DNA of 27,892 bases from an uncultured virus (IMG/VR IMGVR_UViG_3300032456_000001). Its lineage: Duplodnaviria > Heunggongvirae > Uroviricota > Caudoviricetes. Both the position numbers and the translations under genes were made by a program. Positions 2 through 24,971 of the stretch are shown here, one piece after another. Position 1 is the stretch's first letter, and each line of letters opens with the position of its first letter. The stretch is from IMG/VR virus record IMGVR_UViG_3300032456_000001; one strand, 5' to 3'. The notes under the pieces are model-generated. The model did not search any database. It had not been told where the DNA came from and saw nothing but the letters and a program-made list of their open reading frames with translations.

Positions 2-292
2 AGACTACAAGGTCAGGCGCTTCGAGCTAAAGCAGACATTACCATTGCCCAACTTCAAGGGGTGTCAGAGAAAGCTAGGGCAACAACTGATGTAGCCGTA
101 GCAGTGGCAGACACCATAGAAGTTGTCGTTACCGAGTCGCAGAGGTACTACGAAGCCGAGCAGCGAGTCAAATCTGTTGCAGCACAAGTTCTCCCTGATT
201 ATGCAGCTTTACTCTCTGGGGACAGCCCATTTAGCCGTCCCGAACAAATTGAGCAATCTCGCAATTTTCCACAACTACCTTACAGGAAATAA
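2..292 (+). CDS. Hypothetical protein, 5'-partial
   Basis: The frame of ORF 62..292 is open from position 2 (RLQGQALRAKADITIAQLQGVSEK...). Its stop is 1 nt before the next ATG. Confidence 0.7.
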   Translation, partial: RLQGQALRAKADITIAQLQGVSEKARATTDVAVAVADTIEVVVTESQRYYEAEQRVKSVAAQVLPDYAALLSGDSPFSRPEQIEQSRNFPQLPYRK

Positions 293-293
293 A

Positions 294-548
294 ATGTTTC
301 CACTCGCATTAGGATTAACTGTTTTAGTTTCGACCAACTTTCTAATTTACGCAATCAAATCTCAGTTACTAGCCGCCAATATAGGGATTATCATTCTAGG
401 GTTAGTTATCTGTTCAAATCTTTTAGCAACTCTTATGCCTACGCTGTTCTCGGAACTATGGAGCTTCCCGGTCAATAAAGTTATCGCCTACTCTATCGGG
501 TTTTGGTTTTGCATCACTTGTGGACTTATCGTAGGGGTTGCAACCTAA
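294..548 (+). CDS. Small membrane protein (about 3 TM segments)
   Basis: ATG at 294 follows the previous stop. The 84-aa product is hydrophobic (MFPLALGLTVLV...). TAATG overlap with the next gene. Confidence 0.7.
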   Translation: MFPLALGLTVLVSTNFLIYAIKSQLLAANIGIIILGLVICSNLLATLMPTLFSELWSFPVNKVIAYSIGFWFCITCGLIVGVAT

Positions 549-913
549 TGTCGAAAACGACTGAGCATTTCTTTGGAAATCTTTTTAACGAGAAAGATTT
601 CAACGCTCTAACCACCAAAACAACCGTAGCAATATCCATATCTGGTGGTGCGTGGTTAGGAAGTCTATTCTTTGGTGGCAAACCATCAAACCTTAAAACG
701 GCAAGTCTGTTGCTTGCTATTGCCATAGGAGTTTTGGCAAGCTCGTTAGCGCTCAAAAGACAGAAGTTAGTACGGAAAAAAGCCGTAATGATGCAGGTGG
801 AAAACAACGACTTCCTGCAAAAGACAGGTGTTCTCACTGGGTTAAACGCAGAGCTAACAACAAAGCACCTAGAAGAGTGCTTGAAGCAAGATGTCAAGCC
901 AAATTCTAAATAG
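548..913 (+). CDS. Membrane protein (2 TM segments, basic C-terminal region)
   Basis: ATG at 548 is coupled to the upstream stop. Two hydrophobic stretches are followed by KRQKLVRKK. Confidence 0.7.
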   Translation: MSKTTEHFFGNLFNEKDFNALTTKTTVAISISGGAWLGSLFFGGKPSNLKTASLLLAIAIGVLASSLALKRQKLVRKKAVMMQVENNDFLQKTGVLTGLNAELTTKHLEECLKQDVKPNSK

Positions 914-3293: not shown

Positions 3294-3393
3294 GTGCTAA
3301 TTAAATTCTATACCGCTGCAACTCAACAAATAACTTATAATTGTTTGCCTTGTTTTGTTGACTCTAAGGATAGTTATTTATGATTACTGCCTT

Positions 3394-6300
3394 GTGGTTA
3401 CATCAGTAGGGTCAGTTTTATTTAGTGTAGGAGTTGATGCGTCAGGATTGGGAAGAAGTCTTGACGAAGCTCGTCGGAGCGTGGGAAACCCAAGCATAAA
3501 CATTCCCCTAATTATTGTTCCGCCTAGAATCCCAGAAATCCCGCCCATAGTTGTCCCGCCCATAATTGTTCCACCTATAGAGATTCCGCCAATAGACACA
3601 GCCGCTGCAATTGCTGGATTTCAGGCGTTGGCGGATGCAGCAAAATTTACCTTTGGGACTATAAAAGGGTTTGCAGAAGAAGGAATTAATACTTACAAAG
3701 GCTTTGAAGGCTCTCTTAACTCATTCCGTGCGGCAGCAGGTGCGAGTGCCGAAGAAGTAGCAGCACTTGAAAGAGAAGCGGTGTCTATTGGAATCGCGAC
3801 AACTAAAACAAGCAACGAGTCGGCAGAGGCTGCTGTTGAATTGGCAAAGCTGGGTTTCAGCGCTAAAGATACCGCTAAAAACTTACGCGGCTTAGTCGCA
3901 ATGGCAGAAGCCTCTGGCGCTAGTGTTAAAGTATCTGCTTCAGTTGTTGGTGCTGCTACCACTATTTACGGCAGAAGTGCCAACGAAATTGCAAACGTAG
4001 TTTCAGCCACGGCGGCGGCTGGTGCGATTGATGCGCCTGACTTTCTGCAAATATTGTCTCAAGCTGGTGCAGTTGCAAAAGCAAACAATCAAGACTTAGA
4101 AACCTTAGCAACAACTTTTAGTTTAGTTAGAGATGCCGGATTTAGTGCCTCAACTGCCGCCACAGCGGTAAAAACAGTTATTGGCAGACTTTCAGCACCT
4201 TCTACAAAAGAAGCGTCTGAAGCCATGAAAAAACTAGGGGTAGATATCCGAGATTCTACAACCGGAGAAATGCGAAATCTGGTTGAGTTAGTTCCAGAGT
4301 TTCGTTCTGCCCTTAATAAAATGCGACCAGACGAAAAGGCCAGTTTGGTAAGAATAATCTTTGGAGATGAAGGCGGGCCAGCCTTTCTTGGTTTACTAGG
4401 TCAAACTCAAGACAAAATAGACAAAACTTATACAAAAATCAAAAACGCTCAAAAAGGAGATTCTGGCGCAGGCTCAGCTATTGAACAACAAAAACAGTTA
4501 CAACAAGGTTTGGGGAATGCTACGGAACAGTTAAGTGGAAGTATAGACGCTCTAAAATTACAATTAGGAAAATCTCTTGCACCTTCACTAGCCGCAGCAG
4601 CAACAGCCGCCAATTCGCTTTTAGGTGTTTTTTTAAGTGCACCTGCACCAGTTCAAACATTAATTGGTGGAACAATCGCCCTTGTTACGGCTACATCTGG
4701 GTTGATTGTTGGCTATACCATTCTTGAGAAATTGCAGATTATCAAAACTGCACAAGAAATCGCCGGAGCCGCTGCAACTACTGCCGGAATTGTTGTTACA
4801 AAAGCTGCCGCTGCTGCTAAAACGGTTTACGCTTTAGCTACTACCCAAGTTACAGTTGCGATGGTCACAAATAATGCGGCAATGGCAGTTACCCAAATTC
4901 GGTTAGTAGCAATGACGGCGAACTATCTTCGCGCAACCATTGTAACTAACTTATTTGGGACATCCTCTTACTTTGCTGCTGTTGGTCTTGGTGGTATGGC
5001 AACTAGCGCTGCCTTGGCATTAGCACCTCTTGCAGCGTTGGGTGCAGCCATTGGATTGATTGCTATTGTCCAAAAAACTCAGGAAATGAAGGGGCTTAAC
5101 GTTGCGCTTGATGACCTACGAGCCAACACTGACATTGTGGGCAAGGCTGGAGTGGGTAGCGCTCAAGACTTAGGCAATGCTCAACGCACCCGTGCCAAAG
5201 CCACAACAGAAGGGCGAGGGTTGACAACGGTTGAGAAAGAAGCTGAGAAAAAAGCTTTAAAACGCGCAGATAATACTTTACCCCTGCTAGATAAACAATT
5301 AGAAGAAGCCAACGCCGTCCCCGAAGCCAAGGCAGGATTATTTGGCATAGGCGGAAACGAAGCCGAAGCTCAAAACAATGCGCGAAATGCTGCAATTGGT
5401 CAAATTAAAATGCAGATTGACCAAGTTAATCGGCAGAAAAAGTCAATTCAAGAATCAATTGAACTTGACAAGAAAAAAGCTGTACAGCAGGAAAAAGCAA
5501 AACCTACAGTTAACTCAGTTACAGAGGCAATTAAGAAACAATCAACAGCGCTTGAGGAAAAAGTCCTAAAGCAAAAATTTGCGATTGAAAGTGATTTGAC
5601 TGCTGGCAAAATCAATGAAAAAGAAGCCGCTAAAAGGCGGGCGGCAATCGAGTTACAAGCGGCAACAGACAAAGCAAGCTTTGCCAATAAGTCTGTTAAA
5701 AGTTTAGGCGACGCAAAGAAAGAGAAACCTGAAGATTTGGAGAAGCTGAAAGAAACTCAGAAAAAAGCCCAAGAGGAACTACTAAAGGCTCAACAAGAGG
5801 CTAACAAAACTCGTGCAGCGGCAGAGGAAGACCGGAAAAAGAAACAGTTAGACTCGTTTGAGGATAAGTTTAAAGGTAAACAGCAATCCATCCAAAAAGA
5901 CACGAGCGGTGCGACCTTAGAAGCTAAGCAGGCAGAGTTAGGCGGTACAAGTGCTGAAGCTACCTCTAAAAAAATTGAGGCAATTCAACAATCTCAGACT
6001 CGAAAAGAGATTGGACTACTAACTCAAAAACTAGCGGCTACCAAACAGTTGCAAGCCTCTGGCGTAATCACTGCCAAAGAGTCTGCTGACAGACAGGCTC
6101 AAATTGAGGAAGAGTTAACCAACAAAACTCTCGCATTAGTTGAAAAGCAAATCGTCGCCAAACGTAAAGCTGCCGTTGATGCGATTGAAGCGCGACTGTC
6201 CGAGCAAAGGTTACCTCTTGAACGGCAGGCGGCTGATTTAGGAGTTAAATCTCAAGACTTAGATTTGTCTGCTAAACAAGCTTCGGCGGCTGGAGGGGTT

Positions 6301-9300
6301 GACGATGCTCAATCCAAGTTAGACCAACAGCGTCTCGGTTTTCAGTTGCAGATTGCAGAACTCGCTGGAAACACCGCAAAACAGGAGGAGTTGAAAGAGG
6401 CAATTTATCAGAAACAGGTTAGTCATCTTGTAGCCTCTCAGGCACAGCAACGGGCTAGCGTAGGACTCGCACGTAAACAGCAGGAAATCGAGCTACAACG
6501 TCAAGAGATTTCAGCCAAGATTGCAATCATTGAGGCTCAGGCAGCTTTAGCTAAAGCTGTGGCGACAGGAGCCTCAACAGAGGAAGTTGCTGGATTAAAG
6601 CAAGCGCTAGGATTGCGAGGTCAGGCAGCCGCTCAAATTGGCAAAGTCAGAGCAAGCCAAGCTCAAGTCAATGCACTTGAAGATAAAAAGCTGTCTATTG
6701 AGCAGCGGACGACCAAGGAAAACTTAGAGCAAGGTCGAGCGATTGAGAAACAAAAAGAAGCTAGGCAGAAAGCTCTAGAGCAGATTGAACAAGCTGCCAA
6801 AGTTCAAGAGCGTACCAGTAAACTGGCAACCACAAATGAAACCCTTGGCGTTCGCAAGGCTGAACTTTCTGGCAGTATTTCAGCACAAGAAGCCGCCAAG
6901 CAAATTGAAGCAATTGGCGTTAAAACTGCTGAACGCGAACGCGGAATTTTAGAAAGTAAGTTGACAACCACGCGCCAAATGCGAGCGCAGGGCTTAATCT
7001 CTGTTAAGGAAGCCGCAGACCGCGAAGCACAGATTCAGCAAGATTTAACACAAGCAAGTCTCAACCTAATCGAGAAAGAACTCGCAGCCAAGAAAAAGGC
7101 GGCAACCGACGCAATTGAAGCACGGCTGTCTGAGCAGAAGCTACCTCTTGAGAAGCAAGCAGCCGATTTGGGGGTCAAGGGTCAAGACTTAGAATTAGTT
7201 GCGAAAAAACAAGGTGCAATAACTGGGGTACTAGAGGCTCAATCCAAACTAGACCAGCAACGATTAGGTTTTCAGTTACAATTGGCAGACCTCGCTAGTA
7301 ATACTGTTCAGCAAGAGCAACTGAAAGAAGCGATTTATCAACAGCAGTTAAAGTCCCTTGCTCAGTCACAAGAACAGCAAAAAGCAAATGTTGGACTAGC
7401 TCGTCAGCAGCAAGCCATCGAGTTACAGCGCCAGGAGATTACCGCAAAAATTGGTATTCTGGAAGCCGAAGCATCGTTAGCCAAAGCTAAAGCAACTGGT
7501 GCATCTAGTGGAGAGATTGCAGCCCTCAGTCAGGCTCTAGGACTACGGAATCAGGCACTCGGACAAATCAGTAAAGTCCGTTCTGCACAATCTGAAATCA
7601 ATAGTCTTGAAGACAAGAAACTGGCAATTGAGCAAAAGGCGACTCGTGAAAACCTAGAACAAACTCGCGCCATTGAAAAACAGAAAGAAGCCAAACAAAA
7701 AATAGTTGAAAAAATTGAAGAAGCTCTCAAAGTTCAAGAGCGTATCAGTAAGTTAACGACTACAACTGATACCTTGGCAATCCGTAAAGCCGAACTTGCT
7801 GGGGGATTATCAGCAGAAGATGCCGCTAAACAGATTGAAGCCGTCCAACTCAAAACAGCAGGGCGCGAGATTATCATCCTGCAAAATAAGTTAGTTGCAA
7901 CCCGTCAACTACGCGCTCAGGGCGTTATTTCTGCCAAAGAAGCCGCAAACAGAGAAGGGCAAATCCAGCAAGAATTAGCAGGTGCAAACCTTGGGCTGAT
8001 TGAGAAGCAGTTAGAAGCCAAGCGCAAAGCAGCCACCCTAGCAATTGAAATTCAATTAGCCGCGCAAAAACTAAGTCTTGAGAACGAGCTAAACACTCTT
8101 GACAGTCAGAAGTTTGGACTAGATCAACAGTCGCGCAAACAGGCAGCAGCGGGTGGTCTTACTTCTGCGGTATCCGACCTTGACAAGCAACGGTTGGAAT
8201 TCCAACTTGCTCTTGCAGATGCGTCCGGCGATGCCACCAGAGCTGAAGGAATTAAAAAGCAGATTTATGACCAGCAAGTAGCATCACTCGCAGTTCAGCA
8301 ACAAGCTCAACAGCAGTCACTAGCTATTAGCCAGAAACAGCAAGCAATCGAACTACAGCGCCAAAAAATTCAAGCTCAGATTGCCTTGTTTGAGTCTCAG
8401 GCGGCGGTTGAGAAAGCTAAGGCAACGGGTGCAGCGCCTCGCGAAATTGCAGCGTTAAAACAGGTTCAAGGTTTTCGAGAACAAGCACTCGCTCAAGTTG
8501 GGGAATCCGAAAAAGCTCAAAGTGAAATCAACCAACTTGAGCAGCAGCGGCTAAACATCGAACAACAAGGGGGACGGGAACGCCTAACACAGCAACAACA
8601 ACTTGAGGAAGTTCGCAAAGCAGCGCAAACCAAAAAAGACTCTGGTGGCAGTCTTAGTTCGACAAGCTCTGTACAGTCGTCAAATGTTTTTGATGCGTTT
8701 GGCAACGCAAAACCCGCTCTTGATCAAGTTAAAGTTGCCAAAGAGGTAGAGGACAAGAAACAGCAGCAAACCTTAACTGTCACCGCTCAAACTGCGATTA
8801 TTCAAGCTTTGGGAGCCGTACAAGCTGAAGGGTTAAAAGGTTTAGGGTTTGAAGCTCCCAAGGCTGCACCTGTTGCTGAAATGACTCCCGACTGGCTCAA
8901 AGGCATCAGTGCTGAAATTGGCAAACCTTTAGAAATCGCTAAGTCACTGCCAATTTTTGACGTTCCTGTTGACACCGTTTCAGCGGTTCCCGATGTTGAA
9001 ACAGCGAACAAATCCCTTGTAGCCGCTCAGAAGGCGATGGAGGATTATACTAAGAAATGGAATGCCGAAGCTAGAGCCGAAAACGAATTAGCGGCTCGTG
9101 ATTTCGCAAAAAGAAAAGGTATTAATTTCAATACCGAGGAAGGTAAGGTCAATGCTGCAATTGGAACAGCCGAGGAAGCCACCTTGGGAGGTTTGCGCGA
9201 AGCGAAAGCAGCAATGGAGCAGTTTGGGAAACCCGTTAATGGAGCTTTGAAAACATTTGAAGGTGGCCAGACTCCTATAACTGAACTTCAACGTTTGCAA

Positions 9301-9648
9301 CAACAATTAGACGAGGCAAGAGGGAATCAAGTCAAGGCTGAAGGAGAGGCAAACAAACCTAAAGGATTAGAGGCAACTGTTACTAGGATTTATGAGATAT
9401 TAGCAAAAAGATTAGGTGATGTAGCTCCATCTAATCAGCCCCCAATTGCTCCAAAGATTGATACCGAGGTCAAGCAAATTACAATGTCCCTAGAAGAAAC
9501 AGCAGGCAATATTTACAACTTACTCGAAACTATCTCGGACAAGTTAACTGGAATGGGTAAAGGCGGTGTCGGAAACCTTACTGTCGTTTCCCAGAATCCA
9601 GTAGCCGAATGTGCTGAAATCTTAAGCGCACTGGGTAGGAGAAGATAA
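3394..9648 (+). CDS. Phage tail tape measure protein (TP901-type core)
   Basis: Ala-rich N-terminal TMP core (ESAEAAVELAKLGF, GFSASTAATAVKT, IFGDEGG), hydrophobic segments, then a long coiled coil. GTG at 3394 is the likely start; the ORF is open from TTG at 3355. Confidence 0.95.
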   Translation: MVTSVGSVLFSVGVDASGLGRSLDEARRSVGNPSINIPLIIVPPRIPEIPPIVVPPIIVPPIEIPPIDTAAAIAGFQALADAAKFTFGTIKGFAEEGINTYKGFEGSLNSFRAAAGASAEEVAALEREAVSIGIATTKTSNESAEAAVELAKLGFSAKDTAKNLRGLVAMAEASGASVKVSASVVGAATTIYGRSANEIANVVSATAAAGAIDAPDFLQILSQAGAVAKANNQDLETLATTFSLVRDAGFSASTAATAVKTVIGRLSAPSTKEASEAMKKLGVDIRDSTTGEMRNLVELVPEFRSALNKMRPDEKASLVRIIFGDEGGPAFLGLLGQTQDKIDKTYTKIKNAQKGDSGAGSAIEQQKQLQQGLGNATEQLSGSIDALKLQLGKSLAPSLAAAATAANSLLGVFLSAPAPVQTLIGGTIALVTATSGLIVGYTILEKLQIIKTAQEIAGAAATTAGIVVTKAAAAAKTVYALATTQVTVAMVTNNAAMAVTQIRLVAMTANYLRATIVTNLFGTSSYFAAVGLGGMATSAALALAPLAALGAAIGLIAIVQKTQEMKGLNVALDDLRANTDIVGKAGVGSAQDLGNAQRTRAKATTEGRGLTTVEKEAEKKALKRADNTLPLLDKQLEEANAVPEAKAGLFGIGGNEAEAQNNARNAAIGQIKMQIDQVNRQKKSIQESIELDKKKAVQQEKAKPTVNSVTEAIKKQSTALEEKVLKQKFAIESDLTAGKINEKEAAKRRAAIELQAATDKASFANKSVKSLGDAKKEKPEDLEKLKETQKKAQEELLKAQQEANKTRAAAEEDRKKKQLDSFEDKFKGKQQSIQKDTSGATLEAKQAELGGTSAEATSKKIEAIQQSQTRKEIGLLTQKLAATKQLQASGVITAKESADRQAQIEEELTNKTLALVEKQIVAKRKAAVDAIEARLSEQRLPLERQAADLGVKSQDLDLSAKQASAAGGVDDAQSKLDQQRLGFQLQIAELAGNTAKQEELKEAIYQKQVSHLVASQAQQRASVGLARKQQEIELQRQEISAKIAIIEAQAALAKAVATGASTEEVAGLKQALGLRGQAAAQIGKVRASQAQVNALEDKKLSIEQRTTKENLEQGRAIEKQKEARQKALEQIEQAAKVQERTSKLATTNETLGVRKAELSGSISAQEAAKQIEAIGVKTAERERGILESKLTTTRQMRAQGLISVKEAADREAQIQQDLTQASLNLIEKELAAKKKAATDAIEARLSEQKLPLEKQAADLGVKGQDLELVAKKQGAITGVLEAQSKLDQQRLGFQLQLADLASNTVQQEQLKEAIYQQQLKSLAQSQEQQKANVGLARQQQAIELQRQEITAKIGILEAEASLAKAKATGASSGEIAALSQALGLRNQALGQISKVRSAQSEINSLEDKKLAIEQKATRENLEQTRAIEKQKEAKQKIVEKIEEALKVQERISKLTTTTDTLAIRKAELAGGLSAEDAAKQIEAVQLKTAGREIIILQNKLVATRQLRAQGVISAKEAANREGQIQQELAGANLGLIEKQLEAKRKAATLAIEIQLAAQKLSLENELNTLDSQKFGLDQQSRKQAAAGGLTSAVSDLDKQRLEFQLALADASGDATRAEGIKKQIYDQQVASLAVQQQAQQQSLAISQKQQAIELQRQKIQAQIALFESQAAVEKAKATGAAPREIAALKQVQGFREQALAQVGESEKAQSEINQLEQQRLNIEQQGGRERLTQQQQLEEVRKAAQTKKDSGGSLSSTSSVQSSNVFDAFGNAKPALDQVKVAKEVEDKKQQQTLTVTAQTAIIQALGAVQAEGLKGLGFEAPKAAPVAEMTPDWLKGISAEIGKPLEIAKSLPIFDVPVDTVSAVPDVETANKSLVAAQKAMEDYTKKWNAEARAENELAARDFAKRKGINFNTEEGKVNAAIGTAEEATLGGLREAKAAMEQFGKPVNGALKTFEGGQTPITELQRLQQQLDEARGNQVKAEGEANKPKGLEATVTRIYEILAKRLGDVAPSNQPPIAPKIDTEVKQITMSLEETAGNIYNLLETISDKLTGMGKGGVGNLTVVSQNPVAECAEILSALGRRR
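5840..8628 (+). repeat. Three diverged tandem repeats (930 bp / 310 aa) inside the tape measure gene
   Basis: AIEARLSEQ / AIEARLSEQ / AIEIQLAAQ start at 6181, 7111 and 8041, an exact 930-bp period. Outer boundaries are approximate. Confidence 0.9.
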
Positions 9649-10546: not shown

Positions 10547-10894
10547 CTAGAGAACTTTGAGCCCTTCTCTAGATGTTCGGACACAGGAGTTCCGAAACTC
10601 CTGCAAATTGACAGCGGGTAACGGAGAAAACCCGTCCTCTCCTTTTGTCATCGCAACCACTGACGGAAAATACCCCGTCAACCCGTGAATGGCCACCACT
10701 ACTAGTACTGACAGAGGCGCTAAGCCTGGTGGCACAATCACTACATCTTCGCTTCCGTCTCCTACAATGGAGGCTAAGTAGGCAATGAGTTTCTGGCAAA
10801 GCTCCGCGTCCGCTAGATCAACGTGAAGCTGATGATTAACAAACCCGTCGGCGGTTAAAACTGGATTGGGATGAGAAAAGTTTAGTTTAATCAT
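10547..10894 (-). CDS. csx15: Csx15-like protein (CRISPR-associated family; candidate cyclic-oligoadenylate ring nuclease or sponge), stand-alone
   Basis: Motifs LNFSHP (N-terminus), PPGLAPLSVLVVVAIHGLTGYFP and NLQEFR match the Csx15 pattern NFSHP...PPGxA...HGxxGxFP...NLQxxR as I recall it; not searched. Confidence 0.75.
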   Translation of the reverse strand: MIKLNFSHPNPVLTADGFVNHQLHVDLADAELCQKLIAYLASIVGDGSEDVVIVPPGLAPLSVLVVVAIHGLTGYFPSVVAMTKGEDGFSPLPAVNLQEFRNSCVRTSREGLKVL

Positions 10895-10932
10895 AATTTT
10901 TAGAATCCCTACTGAGAAAGATTTACAGGGAA

Positions 10933-10959
10933 AAGCGTAAGAGGGAGTCGAACCCTCAT
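10933..10959 (-). ncRNA. 3' half of a mini tRNA-like element (T-arm plus acceptor 3' strand)
   Basis: GAGGG-TTCGACT-CCCTC forms a canonical T-arm, followed by TTACGCT-T. It pairs with the 5' half at 11392-11410 once the IS is removed. Confidence 0.6.
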
Positions 10960-11391
10960 AGAAAAACTCGGTAAGTGGGAAACTCAGTATCTTCAGACCT
11001 GAGAGGGAAACGGCTCGGCGGTTTGAACCGCCTTGAATCTTTCCATTACCGCATTGGAGTTGCTTGACTTGGTGTACTTTTGTAATGTACTTTCAGCAGG
11101 ACAGTTACTACCTCAAATCTCACAACCCTGTACGCATAATGTTTGCTCTTTTGGAGCCTCCCTTGCGGGGTAATGTTTGCTTCGCCAATGTTTTCTGAGC
11201 TTTTTAGACCTGCAACACTGTTTCAGTGACTTTAAAACTGTTTAATTGCAGGCGACAGGGCAAGGAACTAGCTTCGCATTCCAGGGTGTCGTGACTCAAA
11301 AAACGTAGTCAGTTAAGACTTAGGCTGGTCAGAATAGCTTGCTTCAACTTTCGTCTTACAAGCTCAGTGGCTTTAGCCCTGAGTTTCTGAC
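10960..11391 (-). mobile_element. Non-autonomous IscB-type IS200/IS605 element (iscB deleted), 432 bp
   Basis: Matching 21-nt subterminal hairpins CTCAGT-N10-CTGAG at 10983-11003 and 11363-11383. On the minus strand it begins GTCA and is followed by ATGA (10956-10959), a known type of IscB TAM. The ATG CGT at 11137 after the RNA reaches a stop after 5 codons. Confidence 0.85.
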
Positions 11392-11411
11392 AGGAGTAAC
11401 CTACTATGCTG
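11145..11411 (-). ncRNA. IscB omega RNA (HEARO family) scaffold with predicted 5' guide 11392-11411
   Basis: GTCAGAA/TTCTGAC closing stem; GACCAGCCTAAG, ACTACGTT, GACACCCTGGAATGCG..GCTAGTTCC, TTAAACAG and AACATTGGCGAAGCAAACATTACCCCGCAAGGG motifs; intact helices CGACA/TGTCG, CCTGCAA/TTGCAGG and GTTTTTTGAGT/GCTCAGAAAAC. Confidence 0.9.
11392..11410 (-). ncRNA. 5' half of the mini tRNA-like element (acceptor 5' strand plus short hairpin)
   Basis: AGCATAG pairs with TTACGCT at 6 of 7 positions, including one G-U. TAGG-TTACT-CCT|A closes its fourth pair only across the IS junction. Confidence 0.55.
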
Positions 11412-11417
11412 AAGCAC

Positions 11418-11624
11418 TTAGAGCCCGTGGGCAAACTCTAAATATTGCTTTTCGACACCGCAAATATTCCCTTGACTTAACTCGTAGCTCAAGTCAACAT
11501 CTACTTCTGCCCACAATAAGGCTGTGTCTAGTTGTTGTACTATTGGGCGAGGATTGGTCAATACCTCCTGCCCTACTTCCGTTAACGGGATGAAAGTATT
11601 TTCGACAATTTTAAAGTGATACAT
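11418..11624 (-). CDS. Hypothetical protein (68 aa) downstream of hammerhead 1
   Basis: ATG at 11624 with GGAG/GGA upstream. The longer upstream extension of the ORF runs through the ribozyme. Confidence 0.65.
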   Translation of the reverse strand: MYHFKIVENTFIPLTEVGQEVLTNPRPIVQQLDTALLWAEVDVDLSYELSQGNICGVEKQYLEFAHGL

Positions 11625-11644
11625 AATATTCCAACTCCGTAATT

Positions 11645-11706
11645 TTACTAGCCTCGTCAGTGGCAAAGTAGTAAGCTTTACCAGACACCTGAGAAGGTGT
11701 TTCGGC
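11645..11706 (-). ncRNA. Type II hammerhead ribozyme with loop I / 3' tail pseudoknot (copy 1)
   Basis: GCC-GAA-ACACCU(UCUC)AGGUGU-C^UGGUAAAG(CUUACUA)CUUUGCCA-CUGACGA-GGC-UAGUAA. Complete catalytic core with a GUC cleavage site at 11684/11683; loop UUACUA is complementary to tail UAGUAA. Confidence 0.95.
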
Positions 11707-11714
11707 TTTTTGAC

Positions 11715-12338: not shown

Positions 12339-12500
12339 TCTCCTTTGTTAGTTGTTTTTCGCTTAATAGCAAGTGGTTTTTTCTATCTGTTATTACTATA
12401 GGCTACTCGCTAGGACTTGTCAAGCGTTTTGGGAAAGTATTTTTCAAACGGTATCGAAAGCGTTGCTATGTATGGTGCTTAGCAGTTGTGTTCGCAAGTA
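12339..12500 (-). promoter_or_regulatory. Repeated promoter/leader/RBS module, copy A
   Basis: TTGACA (12418-12423), 17-nt spacer, TATAGT (12395-12400); RBS AGGAGA at 12339-12344. 150/162 identical to 13290-13451 by manual count. Confidence 0.9.
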
Positions 12501-12802: not shown

Positions 12803-12864
12803 TTACTAGCCTCGTCAGTGGCAAAGTAGTAAGCCTTACCAGACACCTGAGAAGGTGTTTCGGC
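12803..12864 (-). ncRNA. Type II hammerhead ribozyme with pseudoknot (copy 2)
   Basis: Identical to copy 1 except for one stem I change (A-U to G-U, pairing kept). GUC cleavage site at 12842/12841. Confidence 0.95.
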
Positions 12865-12884
12865 GATTATTAGATAGGAAAAGA

Positions 12885-13289: not shown

Positions 13290-13451
13290 TCTCCTTTGTT
13301 AGTTGTTTTTTGCTTAATAGCAAGTGGTTTTTTCTATCTGTTATCACTATAGGCTACCCACTAAGACTTGTCAAGCGTTTTGGGAAAGTATTCTTCAAAC
13401 GGTATCAAAAGTGTTGCTATGTATGGTACTTAGCGGTTTTGTTCACAAGTA
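13290..13451 (-). promoter_or_regulatory. Repeated promoter/leader/RBS module, copy B
   Basis: TTGACA (13369-13374), 17-nt spacer, TATAGT (13346-13351); RBS at 13290-13295. Confidence 0.9.
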
Positions 13452-14367: not shown

Positions 14368-15573
14368 ATGAAACAAGTTCTGACAGTATCTTGCAAGCTC
14401 CAAGTGACACCTGAGCAGTCTATCAAAATTGATGCAACCTTTCAGGCGTTCGCGAGTGCTTGTGAATATGTGAATCAAACTGTGTCGCCAACCCTGACAA
14501 ACGAATTGGCGATGCAATCTTTGATATATCACGATGTCAGAGATATGTTTGGACTTTCGGCACAGTTGGCAATCCATGCTATTAGACGGGTTTCCGGCAA
14601 CAGAAAAACAGCCAAAAAAGATGGGAAACCGGTCAATAAATTTGCTCCTACTAGCGTCACTTACGATACCCGTATCTTTTCTTTCAGGGAGAAAGATTGG
14701 ACAGTAAGTTTGACTACTACTGGTGGCAGGGAGCGGTTTGTACTGGCTATTGGGAACTACCAACTTGGATTGCTGAAAGGTCAAAACCCCAAGACTGCTA
14801 CTTTGTGCAAACGCAAAGATGGTAGTTACTATCTCAATATTCAGCTTGAATCTCAACCAGCCGAGCCTCCACCAAGCAATCACGTTTTGGGCTGTGATTT
14901 GGGTAGGACTGATATTGCAGTTACTTCTGATGGAGATACATTTAGCGGTAAACAAATTACCCAAGTTAGAAATCATTATGCTAAGTTGAGAGAGAATCTC
15001 CAACGAAAAGCCACGAAAGGCACACGCAGCTCTCGGCGTAGATGTCGAGGATTGTTGAAACGGTTGTCGGGCAAAGAAAAACGCTTTCAGACCTTAGTAA
15101 ATCACACTATCAGTCACCGTATTGTAACGAAGGCTCACAACAAAAATCAAGTTATCGCTTTAGAAGATTTGACTGGGATTAGGGAGCGTACAAATCAGCA
15201 GCCACGCTCGAAGAAAGAGCGCAGACTTAGTAATAGCTGGGCATTTTTTCAGTTGCGTCAATTTCTGATTTACAAAGCTATAAAGCATAGCGTCAAGATT
15301 TTGTTTGTCGAGCCTAGGTACACCAGTCAAATGTGCCACAAATGCCATCACATTCATCCTGTAAAGGGTGAGTCTTATAGGAATGGCAAAAAGTTCGCTT
15401 GTGGTCATTGCGGATGGAAAGGTGATGCAGACTTAAATGGTAGTAAGAACATTGCTACTATTGGGGCTTCCGTAAATAAGCCTGAAGGTTCGAGATTATT
15501 TTGCCATTTGCAAGATCATTTCAGGGCTATTGAAAGCCCACACTGTACCTGTACTCAGGTCAGTGCTGGGTAA
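14368..15573 (+). CDS. tnpB: RNA-guided endonuclease TnpB
   Basis: RuvC-I GCDLG, RuvC-II ALEDL, zinc finger CHKC...CGHC and RuvC-III DADLNGSKNI; all catalytic residues present. TGaTATAAT ends 6 nt before the ATG, suggesting a leaderless mRNA. Confidence 0.97.
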   Translation: MKQVLTVSCKLQVTPEQSIKIDATFQAFASACEYVNQTVSPTLTNELAMQSLIYHDVRDMFGLSAQLAIHAIRRVSGNRKTAKKDGKPVNKFAPTSVTYDTRIFSFREKDWTVSLTTTGGRERFVLAIGNYQLGLLKGQNPKTATLCKRKDGSYYLNIQLESQPAEPPPSNHVLGCDLGRTDIAVTSDGDTFSGKQITQVRNHYAKLRENLQRKATKGTRSSRRRCRGLLKRLSGKEKRFQTLVNHTISHRIVTKAHNKNQVIALEDLTGIRERTNQQPRSKKERRLSNSWAFFQLRQFLIYKAIKHSVKILFVEPRYTSQMCHKCHHIHPVKGESYRNGKKFACGHCGWKGDADLNGSKNIATIGASVNKPEGSRLFCHLQDHFRAIESPHCTCTQVSAG

Positions 15574-22335: not shown

Positions 22336-23112
22336 CTAAATTGGAACTATAGCAAAAGTCGGATTAAACTTAACCTTGATTCTGTGAGTTTCCTTCATCC
22401 CTCTCCTGTCTAGAGCTTCCTGAATTGCTGATTGAATTAAAACAAAAAAATCAATTGCTAGTTTGTCGCCCGTAACAGAGTTTTCGTGTTTCCTGTATTG
22501 ATACAGATACTCATTTATTTTCCCTATTTCTGTAATTTCCGACAGTCGCAAGCAAATGTCATAGTCCTCAATTGTGTCAAATTCCGTGCGAAAACCACCA
22601 ATTTCTAGGTACGCAGATTTTCGCATCATTCGGAAATGAAACGCCATGAAAACCGATAAGATTCGCTCTTTAGAATACGGAATAGAACATCGCCAGCCGG
22701 GCCGCATTTTTTGCCCATTCGCATCAATATCTACATAATTTGTATACACCAACCCCCAGTCGGGATTATTGTCAAGCGCTGCGACTGTTAACTCGATTGC
22801 CTGTTGTTCCAGTAAATCATCAGAGTCAAGTTGCCCGACATACTCTCCCCGTGCCGCACTAAACCCCGCAATCAGCGCATTTGCAGCCCCTCTGTTAGCG
22901 TCATCTGCTGGTCTGTTGGGGTTGGTCAATACCCGAATTCTAGGGTCATGCTCCGCGAAGTTCTGGGCAATCTCTAAGCTCCCATCTGTGGAACCGTCAT
23001 CAGAAATTATCAGTTCCCAGTTTTTGTCTGTTTGCCAGATGACGCTTTCGATGGCGGTTTCAAGGTAACGCTTGCGGTTATAAACTGGGATAACAATAGA
23101 AACAAAAGTCAT
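22336..23112 (-). CDS. Glycosyltransferase family 2
   Basis: VSIVIPVYN, DDGSTD, LDSDD (DxD) and EDYDICLRL motifs. Confidence 0.95.
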   Translation of the reverse strand: MTFVSIVIPVYNRKRYLETAIESVIWQTDKNWELIISDDGSTDGSLEIAQNFAEHDPRIRVLTNPNRPADDANRGAANALIAGFSAARGEYVGQLDSDDLLEQQAIELTVAALDNNPDWGLVYTNYVDIDANGQKMRPGWRCSIPYSKERILSVFMAFHFRMMRKSAYLEIGGFRTEFDTIEDYDICLRLSEITEIGKINEYLYQYRKHENSVTGDKLAIDFFVLIQSAIQEALDRRGMKETHRIKVKFNPTFAIVPI

Positions 23113-23156
23113 ATAAATATACAGACAAATTATTCATCAAATATAGCAGATTCATG

Positions 23157-24047
23157 TTAATTTTGCGTTACACATTTATAGCCAAGCTTTTCTAAGTTGC
23201 GCCAATTTGTTAATTCAATATTTTCTACCTCTATGGCGCTTAATTCATTACGCCAAGCATCAATCCTTGCTGATTCAATTGGCTTAAAAGTCATTGGATT
23301 TAAACCAGCCTGACTTGGTAGCACTAAGTTCAACTCCGCATTCTTCTGATAGAACAACAGCATTGACTCGTCAAAATCCAAGCCTAGCCAGTTACACAAT
23401 TTTAATAATTCTATTGACGGATTTGCGACCAACTCTTCGTACCGAATCAGAAAGAATTGGTCGCAGTCGCGGTATTTCTCAACTAGCTTCGTTACGGCAT
23501 CCCACTGACGCGCCATTCCTTCTAAGTCTCTGGGGCCAGTCCAAACCTTTTCCGCTCTTAATTCTTTTGATAAAATTGCTTGCAATGAACTGTAGCAGGC
23601 TCGAAAATCTCGAAGAATCAAAACAACCCTAGCACTTGAAAAGTGTTTCCAAATTATTTCTAATTGGTGGATATGGCAAGGGTTTTTATCTCCCCAGACC
23701 AAAGAGGTTGGAGCAAACTGCTGAAGATAGCCTTGGTATACCGAGTTTATGGCTAGCGCATAGCTTAAAAAATTATATCTTTTTAAATCCCTAGATAAAG
23801 CTTGTCGATTGACACCCCACTGGCAAAATTTAGGAAATCTTGATTTGTCGTAAAGACTGTTTAAAAAATCTTCAATCTTGTTTGACAGGTTTCCGATGTT
23901 GCCGTACTCTTTTTCTAGAGAAATGAAAAAAAGACTTTCAGGAGGAATGCAAATACCCGGATGAGTCGTTAGCAGTAGTCGTAAAAGAGTCGTGCCAGAA
24001 CGTGGCGCTCCTGTTACAAAAATAGGGTTAACTTGGTGATTAAGCAT
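23157..24047 (-). CDS. Sulfotransferase (PAPS-dependent)
   Basis: 5'-PSB loop GAPRSGTTLL, WGDKNP, LRDFRACYSS and RYEELV motifs; ATG at 24047. Confidence 0.93.
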   Translation of the reverse strand: MLNHQVNPIFVTGAPRSGTTLLRLLLTTHPGICIPPESLFFISLEKEYGNIGNLSNKIEDFLNSLYDKSRFPKFCQWGVNRQALSRDLKRYNFLSYALAINSVYQGYLQQFAPTSLVWGDKNPCHIHQLEIIWKHFSSARVVLILRDFRACYSSLQAILSKELRAEKVWTGPRDLEGMARQWDAVTKLVEKYRDCDQFFLIRYEELVANPSIELLKLCNWLGLDFDESMLLFYQKNAELNLVLPSQAGLNPMTFKPIESARIDAWRNELSAIEVENIELTNWRNLEKLGYKCVTQN

Positions 24048-24082
24048 AAATACAAAGAATAACAACTGAAACTTTAAAAAAT

Positions 24083-24937
24083 TTATTTATAACTTGGCAT
24101 TTCCTTGATTTCTTGAATTGCACCCATCAAAAGTGGTTGAGTTACAGTTTTAAGTTGATGTTGCAAGATAGCAGTTTTAGCAGCATTCTGAGCAACTTTT
24201 ACAACCTGTGCAGCAGAGAATCCGTCCATTTCTGGCAGCAAAATATCCCAGTCTAACTCTTCCGTTTGAGTAGTTTTTGGAAAAGAAACTTGCAACGTAT
24301 GAACCAGTAGCAATTGAACTTCACGCTTGCTCGGTTTTGGTAGCTCAATCACGTCATCAAATCGTCGCCAAACCGCCGAATCTAAAGATTTGGTCAAGTT
24401 GGTTGCCATCACAATCAACCCATTGTCGGGATTGTATTCGTCTAAAACTTGCAAGAAAGTATTAACTATTCGCTTAACCTCGCCAACGTCTTTATTGTCT
24501 TCTCTTGTTCTGAGGATAGAATCACACTCATCGAAAAACAAAACGCATGGAGTTTCGCTAATCTCGTCAAAAACCTTTCTTAGATTCTTGGCTGTATCTC
24601 CTAAAAACGATGATAAAATTGAGTCAAATTGCACTTTAACCAGTGTTAAGCCAGTATTCCATGCTAGACGCTCGGCTCCAAGGGTTTTCCCACAACCAGG
24701 GACTCCGTACAACAGAATCTTTTGCCTGTAGTGCAGGTTGTGAACAGCCAATCTAGCTCGTGCTGCATACTCGCACTCAATGCGACGGAATCGGTCTTCA
24801 ACAGCATCGGGTAGCACCATGTCGTGCCGTAGTTTTTCTCGCTCTACAATTGTTGCCATTGATAACTTGTCTCGATTCAATGGTAATGGAATCAACGTCC
24901 TTTCAAGGATTGATTGTTTAGTGGCGGTTCTAGGCAT
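24083..24937 (-). CDS. AAA+ ATPase, IetA-like (family usually paired with an S8 protease)
   Basis: Walker A GVPGCGKT, Walker B FFDECD, sensor ATN and LDSAVWRRFD. LRHDMVLP...EYAAR.RL...AERLAWNTGL resembles the S8-associated ATPases as I recall them. Confidence 0.85.
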   Translation of the reverse strand: MPRTATKQSILERTLIPLPLNRDKLSMATIVEREKLRHDMVLPDAVEDRFRRIECEYAARARLAVHNLHYRQKILLYGVPGCGKTLGAERLAWNTGLTLVKVQFDSILSSFLGDTAKNLRKVFDEISETPCVLFFDECDSILRTREDNKDVGEVKRIVNTFLQVLDEYNPDNGLIVMATNLTKSLDSAVWRRFDDVIELPKPSKREVQLLLVHTLQVSFPKTTQTEELDWDILLPEMDGFSAAQVVKVAQNAAKTAILQHQLKTVTQPLLMGAIQEIKEMPSYK

Positions 24938-24971
24938 GATATTATTGTTTTAGTGTTATTAAAATTGTATC

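What the first reader, a model, noticed from the sequence alone, without database searches (positions are those of the whole stretch)
10933..11410. Hidden 46-nt mini tRNA-like element revealed by excising the IscB element
Joining 11410-11392 to 10959-10933 (minus strand) gives AGCATAG-TAGG(TTACT)CCTA-T-GAGGG(TTCGACT)CCCTC-TTACGCT-T. This folds as an acceptor-like stem with one A-C mismatch, a single short hairpin in place of the D and anticodon arms, and a canonical T-arm. It occupies the same inter-ORF position as the hammerheads. Established: acceptor stem plus T-arm is the minimal RNase P / RNase Z substrate. Inference: a second, host-enzyme-dependent mRNA cutting device that releases the csx15 mRNA, or a tRNA decoy.
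Basis: partly seen in the sequence, partly recalled or inferred. Interest (0 to 1): 0.75.

Follow-up and report, generated by a model that had tools for sequence, protein, structure and literature searches.

The report
Split mini tRNA-like element in phage operon
A small tRNA-shaped RNA element that sits between two genes of a cyanobacterial virus has been split in this genome by a jumping-gene remnant, and its intact relatives suggest it marks a place where the host's tRNA-trimming enzymes cut the viral message.

Summary
Window 10960-11391 (minus strand) is a 432-nt mobile-element remnant: a HEARO/IscB guide-RNA scaffold plus a transposon end, with no IscB gene. Eight related viral or metagenome contigs lack the insert.

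That element is a canonical T-arm plus a short acceptor-like stem and a small central hairpin. A second hairpin follows 3-4 nt later. Its 22-nt T-arm core is the longest invariant run in about 590 aligned columns.

Three further elements of the same build lie in other gene gaps of relatives. Their stems differ in sequence but still pair. No tool calls any of them a tRNA.

In the window's own copy the acceptor stem is weak (one A·C mismatch, not beyond chance) and the element is broken by the insert.

The best reading is inferred, not shown: a processing mark for RNase P and RNase Z, like plant-mitochondrial t-elements. It would work in parallel with the hammerhead-like motifs in the neighbouring gene gaps.

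An att-site origin is not supported. No RNA data were available. The "IscB element" label is only partly right.

The parts
11392..11410 (-). 5' half of the tRNA-like element: the acceptor-like 5' strand (11410-11404) and most of the short central hairpin. The last 16 nt (11407-11392) also lie where the guide of the inserted omega-RNA would be.
   Evidence: Aligns with the uninterrupted element of L001, L018 and others.
10960..11391 (-). 432-nt non-autonomous IS remnant with no IscB ORF, inserted in the same direction as the operon.
   Evidence: Ends are defined by 8 insert-free contigs. There is no ORF of 100 aa or more. In 4 metagenome runs this stretch has a depth in the thousands against about 28 for the flanks in X1, with unrelated flanks starting at 10956/10962.
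11170..11391 (-). HEARO RNA, the IscB omega-RNA scaffold.
   Evidence: Rfam RF02033, 160.9 bits against a gathering score of 83, E 1.5e-34, model positions 1-211 of 211.
10960..11032 (-). Transposon end with a GGCGG..CCGCC hairpin, homologous to the end of a full-length IscB element in a Pseudanabaena MAG.
   Evidence: blastn 72.5% over 80 nt, E 4e-4, to L167 3927-4004. Both copies end in a T-run followed by a flanking ATGAG.
10933..10959 (-). 3' half of the tRNA-like element: AT linker, T-stem 10957-10953, T-loop 10952-10946, T-stem 10945-10941, acceptor-like 3' strand 10940-10934, and position 73 at 10933.
   Evidence: Positions 10959-10938 are invariant in 7 of 7 aligned sequences. The ATGAG at 10959-10955 is the flank shared with L167, that is the motif next to the transposon.
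10906..10931 (-). Hairpin with a 7-bp stem and a 12-nt loop, starting 2-3 nt after the tRNA-like element and ending 11 nt before the csx15-like start codon.
   Evidence: 7-bp stem. Present in all relatives and in the RNAalifold consensus. An equivalent hairpin follows sister elements B, C and C2.
10547..10894 (-). Downstream gene: Csx15-like protein of 115 aa.
   Evidence: NCBIfam NF040560 CAS_Csx15, 45.2 bits against a cut-off of 35. 29 homologue clusters.
11418..11624 (-). Upstream gene: 68-aa ORF of unknown family. Its stop codon lies 7 nt before the element.
   Evidence: No Pfam or NCBIfam match.
11642..11707 (-). Type-II hammerhead-like motif in the preceding gene gap.
   Evidence: Rfam Hammerhead_II at 25.2 bits, below the gathering score of 37; E 0.0016 in a 121-nt search. 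The core CUGANGA / GAAA / GUC is visible in the sequence. A near-identical copy lies at about 12807-12866, but it was not listed by Rfam at E<=1.
12395..12423 (-). Promoter-like site that would drive the 205-aa ORF, the 68-aa ORF and csx15 as one transcript.
   Evidence: TTGACA-17-TATAGT, 11 of 12 matches. No comparable site lies downstream on this strand. This is a consensus match only.

Best explanation
The finding is one member of a small family of tRNA-derived mini elements in a clade of cyanophage-like viruses.

Build (shown):
- A 6-7-bp acceptor-like stem stacked on a canonical T-arm (5-bp stem, loop TTCGAYT).
- A variable central piece of 14-32 nt in place of the D and anticodon arms. 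No CCA is encoded.
- After a 3-4-nt spacer, a stable hairpin that ends shortly before the next start codon.

Proposed function (inferred): the element lies inside a polycistronic transcript. The host tRNA-end enzymes treat the acceptor/T-arm minihelix as a pre-tRNA.
- RNase P would cut at its 5' side, which ends the upstream message a few nt after its stop codon.
- RNase Z would cut after position 73. The csx15-like message would then begin 2-3 nt before a hairpin that could protect its 5' end.

In neighbouring gene gaps of the same operon, type-II hammerhead-like motifs would do the same job by self-cleavage.

In this window (shown): the element is split by an IscB-less omega-RNA/IS remnant. 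The remnant landed at the ATGAG formed by the linker and the start of the T-stem, which is the motif this transposon family sits next to. The local copy is therefore probably impaired.
For: Shown:
1. Insert-free relatives carry the intact element. 8 of 11 contigs lack the insert, and all 11 have the element.
2. The T-arm core is the most conserved stretch of the locus: a 22-nt invariant run against a next-longest run of 8, with 44.7% of 591 columns invariant overall.
3. Sister elements occur in other stop-to-start gaps, on the coding strand.
   - B: G002 about 48.3 kb, L013 106-207 and L015 3-97.
   - C: G002 about 56.2 kb.
   - C2: L015 387-490.
   - A covariance model trained only on the finding's own orthologues ranks them next after those orthologues. 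E is 4.5e-4 and 0.059 in 319 kb, and 5e-5 to 0.14 with filters off.
4. Both stems covary across the family. 93.3% of cells pair against 74.0% in shuffles. 9 of 12 pairs change on both sides. 0 of 500 shuffles reach the observed values, and slid controls pair at 28-59%.
5. Element B folds on its own into acceptor + hairpin + T-arm: ensemble frequency 0.70, z -2.95. With its trailing hairpin z is -3.48, reached by 0 of 200 shuffles.
6. All four types have a hairpin 3-4 nt after the acceptor 3' strand.
7. The operon context fits: a strong promoter-like site only upstream and hammerhead-like motifs in the two preceding gaps.

From the literature (passages read):
- Plant-mitochondrial t-elements were found through the same GGTTCRANYCC motif. 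Their ends coincide with mRNA termini, which is attributed to RNase P/Z (PMC1920247).
- Tandem hammerheads cut polycistronic RNAs of prophage-like regions (PMC3088659).

Recalled, from no call: acceptor plus T-arm is a minimal RNase P/Z substrate. Cyanobacterial tRNA genes mostly lack an encoded CCA and rely on RNase Z. A 5'-terminal hairpin stabilises bacterial mRNA.
Against: - There are no RNA data, so no cleavage site, no released small RNA and no processed ends are shown.
- The finding's own type (A) has the weakest acceptor.
   - Pair 1:72 is T·T in most copies.
   - Position 4 is A·C in the window, A-U in L002/L003, C-G in the L001 type and C·U in the L018 type. Two of the four variants are therefore mismatched.
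   - Shuffle p for acceptor complementarity is 0.05-0.07 for most A copies but 0.52 (window) and 0.75 (L018).
   - Fold z-scores for type A are -1.08 and 0.08.
- The covariation count rests on only four independent element types. I cut the rows at ends chosen from the structure itself, which favours the acceptor helix.
- Three contigs carry the insert, so an intact element is dispensable, at least in the short term.
- Rfam tRNA scores only 18.4 bits against a gathering score of 29 on L001 and nothing on B or C. ARAGORN finds none, including in its mitochondrial modes.
- The family was found only in this narrow virus group. Three further collection scans added no new member.
- The hammerhead-like motifs are below Rfam's threshold, and one of the two was not listed at all.
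Confidence: 0.45

Rival explanations
1. The conserved T-arm hairpin, with the hairpin after it, is a binding or regulatory element of the csx15-like 5' region. Alternatively it is a decoy for a tRNA-binding host or defence factor. It acts without RNase P/Z cleavage, and the acceptor-like pairing is secondary.
For: - The T-arm is invariant at sequence level across about 30% divergence, while the type-A acceptor is imperfect.
- The trailing hairpin has a loop sequence kept between types A, C and C2, which suggests sequence-specific recognition.
- The element always lies just upstream of a start codon.
Against: - The acceptor stems of B, C and C2 are fully different in sequence yet still paired, and they directly abut the T-stem as in tRNA. 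A T-arm-only binding site would not need this.
- There is no anticodon-loop mimic for a decoy of anticodon nucleases.
- No partner has been identified.
Confidence: 0.25
2. The element is a decaying tRNA pseudogene or fragment left in the gene gap, with no present function. The window's insert is one more step in its decay.
For: - The T-arm with 3 nt on each side is identical over 23 nt to that of a real tRNA in an unrelated viral contig (L006), so a tRNA origin is plausible.
- The acceptor is mismatched in the window and in the L018 type.
- The insert is tolerated in 3 contigs.
- At a relaxed ARAGORN threshold, 1 of 6 pieces was called a poor tRNA-Leu.
Against: - The longest invariant run of the locus lies here, not in the flanking genes.
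- Four element types keep the acceptor and T stems through compensatory change while the D and anticodon arms are absent.
- All sit at the same kind of place with the same trailing hairpin.
Confidence: 0.12
3. The element is a partial tRNA copy that serves as a phage attachment (attP) or recombination site matching the 3' end of a host tRNA gene.
For: - Partial tRNA sequences in viruses can be attP. This is so for the HF1 haloviruses (passage read in PMC7230728).
- The sequence-level invariance of the 3' half would fit an identity block.
- A serine recombinase domain lies about 900 nt away in G003 (28-393).
Against: - The invariant 22-mer has 0 exact matches in one genome each of 185,579 bacterial and archaeal species.
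- No tyrosine integrase was found in 4 of 4 related records, with the control ringing in 14 of 14 genomes.
- No resolvase was found in the complete record G004 or in G002.
- An attP does not need a complementary 5' strand.
- Several different elements occur in one genome.
Confidence: 0.05
4. The element is a chance resemblance: a GC-rich hairpin that happens to carry a T-loop-like loop.
For: - The motif count in the window equals expectation.
- The window's acceptor stem is not beyond chance.
Against: Conservation, sister elements found by a model trained on type A alone and covariation.
Confidence: 0.03

Closest known systems
t-elements of plant mitochondria (tRNA-like processing signals; Forner et al. 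2007, PMC1920247, passages read)
   Same: - Non-canonical tRNA-like structures that carry the GGTTCRANYCC T-arm motif.
- Embedded in longer transcripts next to protein-coding genes.
- Proposed to direct RNase P and RNase Z cuts that make mRNA 5' and 3' ends.
   Different: - These elements are in viruses of cyanobacteria, not organelles.
- They are much smaller (46-64 nt, with one short hairpin or arm in the middle).
- They come coupled to a hairpin 3-4 nt downstream.
- They alternate with hammerhead-like motifs.
- No ends have been mapped here.
mascRNA / MALAT1-type tRNA-like 3'-end processing, and the mitochondrial tRNA punctuation model (recalled, from no call)
   Same: A tRNA-shaped element inside a long transcript is cut out by RNase P and RNase Z, and this defines the ends of the flanking RNAs.
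   Different: Those are eukaryotic, and the elements are full cloverleaf-like structures or true tRNAs. Here the D and anticodon arms are missing and the setting is a bacterial virus.
Hammerhead ribozymes between genes of prophage-like operons (Perreault et al. 2011, PMC3088659, passages read)
   Same: They occupy the same kind of place, the gaps of a polycistronic phage transcript, and are presumed to cut the message there. The window has two such motifs just upstream.
   Different: Hammerheads cut themselves. The tRNA-like element would depend on host enzymes.
HEARO / IscB omega-RNA in IS200/IS605-type elements (Rfam RF02033; Meers et al. preprint 10.1101/2023.03.14.532601, passages read)
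   Same: - The insert matches the full HEARO model.
- It lies in the same direction as the upstream gene, as that preprint reports for IscB elements.
- It ends next to a short conserved flanking motif.
   Different: No IscB ORF is present. About 1.3 kb is missing compared with the Pseudanabaena copy L167, and only the scaffold and the end remain.
Partial-tRNA attP sites of temperate viruses (e.g. HF1-group haloviruses, PMC7230728, passage read)
   Same: A conserved partial tRNA sequence in a virus genome.
   Different: No matching host tRNA and no integrase were found. A complementary 5' strand is present, and there are several different copies per genome.

Membership tests
Canonical tRNA (Rfam RF00005 / ARAGORN) | Cloverleaf with D arm and anticodon arm, scoring above the detection thresholds. 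| tested here: not met
   - ARAGORN found 0 genes at the element in the window, L001-L003, G002-G004 and in 6 excised elements, including the -mt and -mtmam modes.
- Rfam tRNA scored 18.4 bits against a gathering score of 29 on L001 and gave no match on B or C.
Canonical tRNA (Rfam RF00005 / ARAGORN) | T-arm: 5-bp stem and 7-nt loop with the T54 T55 C56 R57 A58 pattern. | tested here: met
   Window 10957-10941. All 12 element copies have 5 of 5 paired T-stem positions and the loop TTCGAYT.
t-element-like tRNA-derived processing signal | GGTTCRANYCC-type T-arm joined directly to an acceptor-like stem, in a non-canonical fold. | tested here: met
   - The family-wide pair count gave 93.3% of cells paired, with the acceptor helix at 89.3% and the T helix at 100%.
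- The window's own acceptor has 6 of 7 positions paired, one of them G·U, plus one A·C mismatch.
t-element-like tRNA-derived processing signal | Ends of the element coincide with mRNA termini in vivo. | not testable with these tools
   No RNA run holds the stretch.
t-element-like tRNA-derived processing signal | Cleaved by RNase P and RNase Z. | not testable with these tools
   Needs an enzyme assay.
HEARO / IscB omega-RNA (RF02033) | Match above the Rfam gathering score over the whole model. | tested here: met
   160.9 bits against 83, model positions 1-211 of 211.
Autonomous IscB IS element | IscB ORF (RRXRR/RuvC plus HNH) directly downstream of the omega-RNA. | tested here: not met
   - No ORF of 100 aa or more lies in 10960-11169.
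- The relative L167 has a 437-aa ORF there with RRXRR at 238.5 bits and HNH at 43.9 bits.
Autonomous IscB IS element | Defined ends, no target duplication, conserved flanking motif. | tested here: met
   - Empty sites in 8 contigs give exact ends and show no duplication.
- ATGAG flanks the end both in the window and in L167.
- Unrelated flanks begin at 10956/10962 in 4 runs.
Phage attP made of a partial tRNA | Identity block with the 3' end of a host tRNA gene. | tested here: not met
   0 exact matches of the invariant 22-mer in genome contigs. The true host may be missing from that collection.
Phage attP made of a partial tRNA | Integrase encoded by the phage. | tested here: not met
   - PF00589 matched 0 of 4 records.
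- PF00239 matched only G003, not the complete G004.
- The window's ORFs gave no recombinase family other than a TnpB-type ORF.
Hammerhead ribozyme type II (RF02276), for the neighbouring motifs | Score at or above the gathering score. | tested here: not met
   25.2 bits against 37 for 11642-11707. The copy near 12807-12866 was not listed at E<=1, and neither was listed in the whole-window scan.
Hammerhead ribozyme type II (RF02276), for the neighbouring motifs | Conserved core (CUGANGA, GAAA, cleavage triplet GUC) with three stems in the type-II order. | tested here: met
   - Read in the sequence and in the Rfam alignment.
- My regular-expression scan found it twice in the window and once each in G003 and G004.
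- The same scan gave 2 unrelated-looking hits, at window 25142 and in G001.
YrlA (Y RNA-like, tRNA-mimicking) | Match to RF02553. | tested here: not met
   18.0 bits against a gathering score of 69.

The most novel reading that the evidence does not exclude
Viruses of filamentous cyanobacteria punctuate their small-gene operons with two interchangeable kinds of RNA cutting mark. One is the self-cleaving type-II hammerhead. The other is a 46-64-nt mini tRNA-like element that borrows the host's RNase P and RNase Z. Each is placed so that the downstream message starts at a protective hairpin. This would be the first t-element-type mRNA punctuation system in a phage or bacterium. In the window lineage a solo omega-RNA has landed in one such mark and uses its 5' half as its guide. 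With an IscB supplied by the host's many copies of the same element, it could cut insert-free rival phages at that very site.
Probability: 0.3. Interest if true: 0.75.

Novelty: new variant of a known kind. Interest (0 to 1): 0.6.

Why it matters
If these elements are cut by RNase P and RNase Z, they show that phages use host tRNA-processing enzymes, as well as ribozymes, to split polycistronic messages. They would also set the 5' ends of early or anti-defence genes such as the Csx15-like gene. This logic is known from organelles and from a few eukaryotic long RNAs, but I did not find it described for phages in the four literature searches on this point.

The elements are very small, self-contained RNase P/Z substrates. 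They could therefore be useful as natural, compact processing tags.

The case also documents an IscB-less omega-RNA carried by a phage. It is inserted so that the host transcript would supply its guide, which bears on how such guide-RNA transposons spread between hosts and viruses.

Tried and rejected
- **Own genome.** The window's assembly is not held. The nearest record, G001 (11 kb), does not cover the locus.
- **Cultured phages.** The only DNA match is a HEARO piece in Microcoleus phage My-WqHQDG. The Csx15-like protein has no match there.
- **Expression.** No RNA holder is listed among 19 runs.
- **Empty site of the window's own lineage.** Laying 4 DNA runs gave no contig that joins across 10960-11391.
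- **Widening the family.**
   - Exact stretches of elements B and C, and of the C hairpin, found only G002 or unrelated coding DNA.
   - The hairpin-loop scan of the window and G004 found no further copy.
- **Distant relatives.** L004 and L005, reported at 32% identity to the upstream ORF, are unrelated coding DNA.
- **Fold of the window's interrupted copy (494 nt).** The T-arm forms but the two acceptor halves do not pair.
- **ARAGORN at 80% threshold.** It called a poor tRNA-Leu in 1 of 6 pieces, starting inside the upstream ORF. I treat this as an artefact.
- **Phage-encoded CCA-adding enzyme.** PF01743 matched 0 of 4 records.
- **Earlier notes of this scan.** Nothing was returned in 3 look-ups.
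- **The CUGAUGAG in L001 just before the T-arm.** It looks like a hammerhead core. No GAAA follows stem II and it is not kept in the window, so I rejected it.
- **Model hit L157 8838-8938 (+), E 0.038.** It has no T-loop and is noise.
Full report
**What is at the coordinates**

On the minus strand the window has a run of small ORFs:
- a 205-aa ORF (12332-11715);
- a 68-aa ORF (11624-11418);
- a 115-aa ORF (10894-10547).

The 115-aa protein matches NCBIfam CAS_Csx15 at 45.2 bits against a cut-off of 35.

Between the last two ORFs lie 523 nt. Rfam finds one family in the whole window. This is HEARO, the IscB omega-RNA, at 11391-11170 on the minus strand, with 160.9 bits against a gathering score of 83. 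No ORF of 100 aa or more follows it. ARAGORN finds no tRNA in the window.

**The insert and its ends**

I fetched relatives through the two flanking proteins, and through the 22-nt stretch around the T-arm.
- Two viral contigs (L002, L003) have the same insert at the same place.
- Eight contigs lack it: G002 (=L001/L014), G004 (=L009/L018), L011, L012, L013, L015, L016 and L017.
- In those eight, the gap between the two genes is 99-101 nt and is continuous with the window's two flanks.

The comparison places the insert at 10960-11391 (432 nt). There is no duplicated target, and a 2-nt ambiguity does not change the joint.

**What the insert is**

The end of the HEARO match occurs exactly in 11 stretches of filamentous cyanobacterial genomes (Pseudanabaena, Baaleninema, Lyngbya, Oscillatoriales).
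- In one of them (L167) the scaffold is followed by a 437-aa ORF with RRXRR (238.5 bits) and HNH (43.9 bits) domains.
- That ORF is followed by an end that is 72.5% identical over 80 nt to window 11032-10955.
- Both copies stop at a T-run and are flanked by ATGAG.
- Another copy (L166) has an internally deleted 175-aa ORF.

The window's insert is thus a non-autonomous, IscB-less derivative made of the guide-RNA scaffold plus the end.

In four public metagenome runs the insert has word depths in the thousands, against about 28 for the phage flanks in X1. Unrelated flanks begin at 10956/10962. It therefore belongs to a high-copy element family of the community.

Passages of Meers et al. (10.1101/2023.03.14.532601) say that the IscB omega-RNA abuts one transposon end. 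They also say that these elements sit next to a short adjacent motif, and that they tend to lie in the direction of the upstream gene. All three fit here.

The ATGAG is made by the 2-nt linker and the first three T-stem bases. That explains why the insert sits exactly there.

**The element itself**

In the window's numbering:
- acceptor-like 5' strand, 11410-11404;
- short hairpin, 11403-11392 plus 10959;
- T-stem, 10957-10953;
- T-loop, 10952-10946;
- T-stem, 10945-10941;
- acceptor-like 3' strand, 10940-10934;
- position 73, 10933;
- a 7-bp hairpin, 10931-10906, ending 11 nt before the start codon.

Conservation is striking.
- I aligned 7 sequences that are 67-79% identical overall.
- Of the 591 columns, 44.7% are invariant.
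- The longest invariant run is 22 columns, covering the linker, the T-arm and the first three bases of the 3' strand.
- The next longest run is 8.

RNAalifold on the nine gap sequences gives a 5-bp acceptor helix, the T-arm and the trailing hairpin.

**Weak points of the finding's own type (A)**
- Pair 1:72 is T·T in most copies.
- Position 4 is A·C in the window, A-U in L002/L003, C-G in the L001 type and C·U in the L018 type. Only two of the four variants pair there.
- Shuffling the upstream 60 nt reaches the observed acceptor complementarity in 5-7% of trials for most type-A copies. It does so in 52% of trials for the window and in 75% for L018.
- Fold z-scores are -1.08 (L001), 0.08 (L018) and -1.8 (window joined). 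The minimum-energy fold of the joined window sequence lacks the acceptor stem.
- In the uncut 494-nt window sequence only the T-arm forms.

**Sister elements**

A scan for T-arms with an abutting acceptor stem found two more elements in G002. It covered the window and the records G001-G004, 319 kb in all. Both are on the coding strand, in stop-to-start gaps, and each is followed after 3 nt by a hairpin.
- B lies near 48.3 kb. It has a 7-bp perfect acceptor and a 5-bp central hairpin with a 7-nt loop.
- C lies near 56.2 kb. It has a 6-bp acceptor and a 32-nt central arm.

A covariance model built only from five type-A orthologues ranks C and B directly after the orthologues. E is 4.5e-4 and 0.059 in 319 kb. 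With filters off, the model also finds B copies in L013 and L015. It finds a fourth type, C2 (L015 387-490, E 5e-5), at the place orthologous to C. C2 has the same trailing hairpin but different acceptor and T-stem sequences.

Element B alone folds as acceptor + hairpin + T-arm (ensemble frequency 0.70, z -2.95). With its trailing hairpin z is -3.48, reached by 0 of 200 shuffles.

I counted pairs on an alignment of 8 distinct rows (types A, B, C and C2).
- 93.3% of cells pair, against 74.0% in shuffles.
- 9 of 12 pairs change on both sides.
- 0 of 500 shuffles reach these values, and slid controls pair at 28-59%.

Two caveats apply. There are only four independent types. I also cut the rows at ends chosen from the structure, which favours the acceptor helix.

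No member is called a tRNA.
- ARAGORN finds none, including in its mitochondrial modes.
- Rfam tRNA scores 18.4 bits against a gathering score of 29 on L001.
- Rfam gives nothing on B or C.

**Context**

Promoter-like sites with 11 of 12 matches lie at 13374-13346 and 12423-12395 on the minus strand. None of that quality lies further downstream. The 205-aa ORF, the 68-aa ORF and csx15 are therefore probably one transcript.

The two preceding gaps hold near-identical 60-nt motifs with the type-II hammerhead core.
- Rfam scores the one at 11642-11707 at 25.2 bits, below its threshold of 37 (E 0.0016 in a 121-nt search).
- It did not list the other at E<=1.
- It listed neither in the whole-window scan.
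- The same motif precedes the 68-aa ORF in G003 and G004. G002 has none, but has three tRNA-like elements instead.

**Mechanism**

The architecture fits a processing mark for the tRNA-end enzymes:
- an acceptor/T-arm minihelix;
- no encoded CCA;
- a position 73 followed by two pyrimidines, mostly TT;
- a hairpin 3-4 nt later.

RNase P would end the upstream message just after its stop codon. RNase Z would leave the downstream message with 2-3 free nucleotides and a 5' hairpin. The hammerhead-like motifs would likewise leave stem I at the new 5' end.

The substrate rules, the reliance of cyanobacteria on RNase Z and CCA addition, and the protective effect of 5' hairpins are recalled knowledge. 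They come from no call.

The closest described kind is the plant-mitochondrial t-element. It was found through the same T-arm motif, and its ends coincide with mRNA termini (PMC1920247, passages read). Hammerheads that cut polycistronic prophage RNAs are described in PMC3088659 (passages read).

Nothing here shows cleavage, and no RNA run holds the stretch. I give this reading 0.45.

**Rivals**
- **Binding or regulatory hairpin, or a decoy (0.25).** This fits the sequence-level invariance of the T-arm and the conserved loop of the trailing hairpin. It does not explain why unrelated acceptor sequences keep pairing.
- **Dead tRNA fragment (0.12).** This fits the mismatches, the tolerated insert, and the identity of 23 nt with a true tRNA of an unrelated virus (L006). 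It does not fit the conservation or the covariation.
- **attP (0.05).** This is known for partial tRNAs in haloviruses (PMC7230728, passage read). The evidence against it here:
   - The invariant 22-mer has no exact match in one genome each of 185,579 species.
   - No tyrosine integrase is found in 4 of 4 records.
   - A resolvase domain occurs only in G003, not in the complete G004.
- **Chance (0.03).**

**Novelty**

Four literature searches on this point returned no description of such mini tRNA-like punctuation in phages. They covered tRNA-like elements, hammerheads, RNase P/Z, phage and cyanophage.

A survey of structured RNAs in viruses mentions tRNA-like candidates only in general terms. 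I read passages of PMC10690425 but did not open its supplements.

I rate the finding a new variant of a known kind. The family is narrow, and three further scans added no member.

**Verdict**

The structural reading is largely supported at family level, but it is weak for the window's own broken copy. The functional reading is plausible and untested. The "IscB element" label needs correcting to an IscB-less omega-RNA remnant.

Noticed in passing
window 11642-11707 and about 12807-12866, minus strand; also G004 about 17400 and G003 about 2051: Near-identical 60-nt type-II hammerhead-like motifs lie in gene gaps just before start codons. Rfam scores one of them at 25.2 bits, under its threshold of 37. 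It misses the other one, and it misses both in a whole-window scan.
   Followed up: partly
window 11392-11407 (minus strand) with 10955-10959: The 16 nt before the omega-RNA scaffold, which would be its guide, are the 5' half of the tRNA-like element. The flanking ATGAG would follow the target in an insert-free phage. The same element family is high-copy in the metagenomes that hold the phage, so a host IscB could perhaps use this phage-borne guide against insert-free relatives. The insert-free relatives seen here differ from the guide at 5 of 16 positions.
   Followed up: no
window 13300-13420 and 12340-12470, minus strand: A repeat of about 120 nt lies in front of two ORFs. It holds a TTGACA-17-TATAGT promoter-like site and the leader down to the ribosome-binding region.
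   Followed up: partly
window 14368-15573, plus strand: A 401-aa TnpB-type ORF (OrfB_IS605 plus the Cas12f1-like TNB domain). It is a second guide-RNA-nuclease transposon in the same window, and this one still has its protein.
   Followed up: no
window 10547-10894, minus strand: A Csx15-like protein (a CRISPR-associated family) is encoded by a virus. It has 29 homologue clusters of 66-79% identity in metagenomes and none in 50,697 cultured-phage records.
   Followed up: partly
L166 2574-3101 (Pseudanabaena MAG): A copy of the same IscB element family has an internally deleted 175-aa ORF that fuses the N- and C-terminal parts. It is an intermediate between the full element and the ORF-less remnant in the window.
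   Followed up: no
G002 (130 kb record): Its GC content is 31.9%, against 42.7% for the window, G003 and G004. It still shares the csx15-like locus at about 70% nucleotide identity. It has three tRNA-like elements and no hammerhead-like motif. A fourth T-arm-like hairpin near 57.9 kb has no clear acceptor stem.
   Followed up: partly
G003 28-393 (minus strand) and 695-769 (plus strand): A resolvase-domain ORF and a tRNA-Met gene lie within about 1 kb of the interrupted element in the window's closest relative. Neither is present at that place in G004 or G002.
   Followed up: no
window 3355-9648 (plus strand), and 22336-25748: A 2097-aa ORF has no Pfam match. Further along lies a cluster with a family-2 glycosyltransferase, two sulfotransferases and an AAA ATPase.
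   Followed up: no
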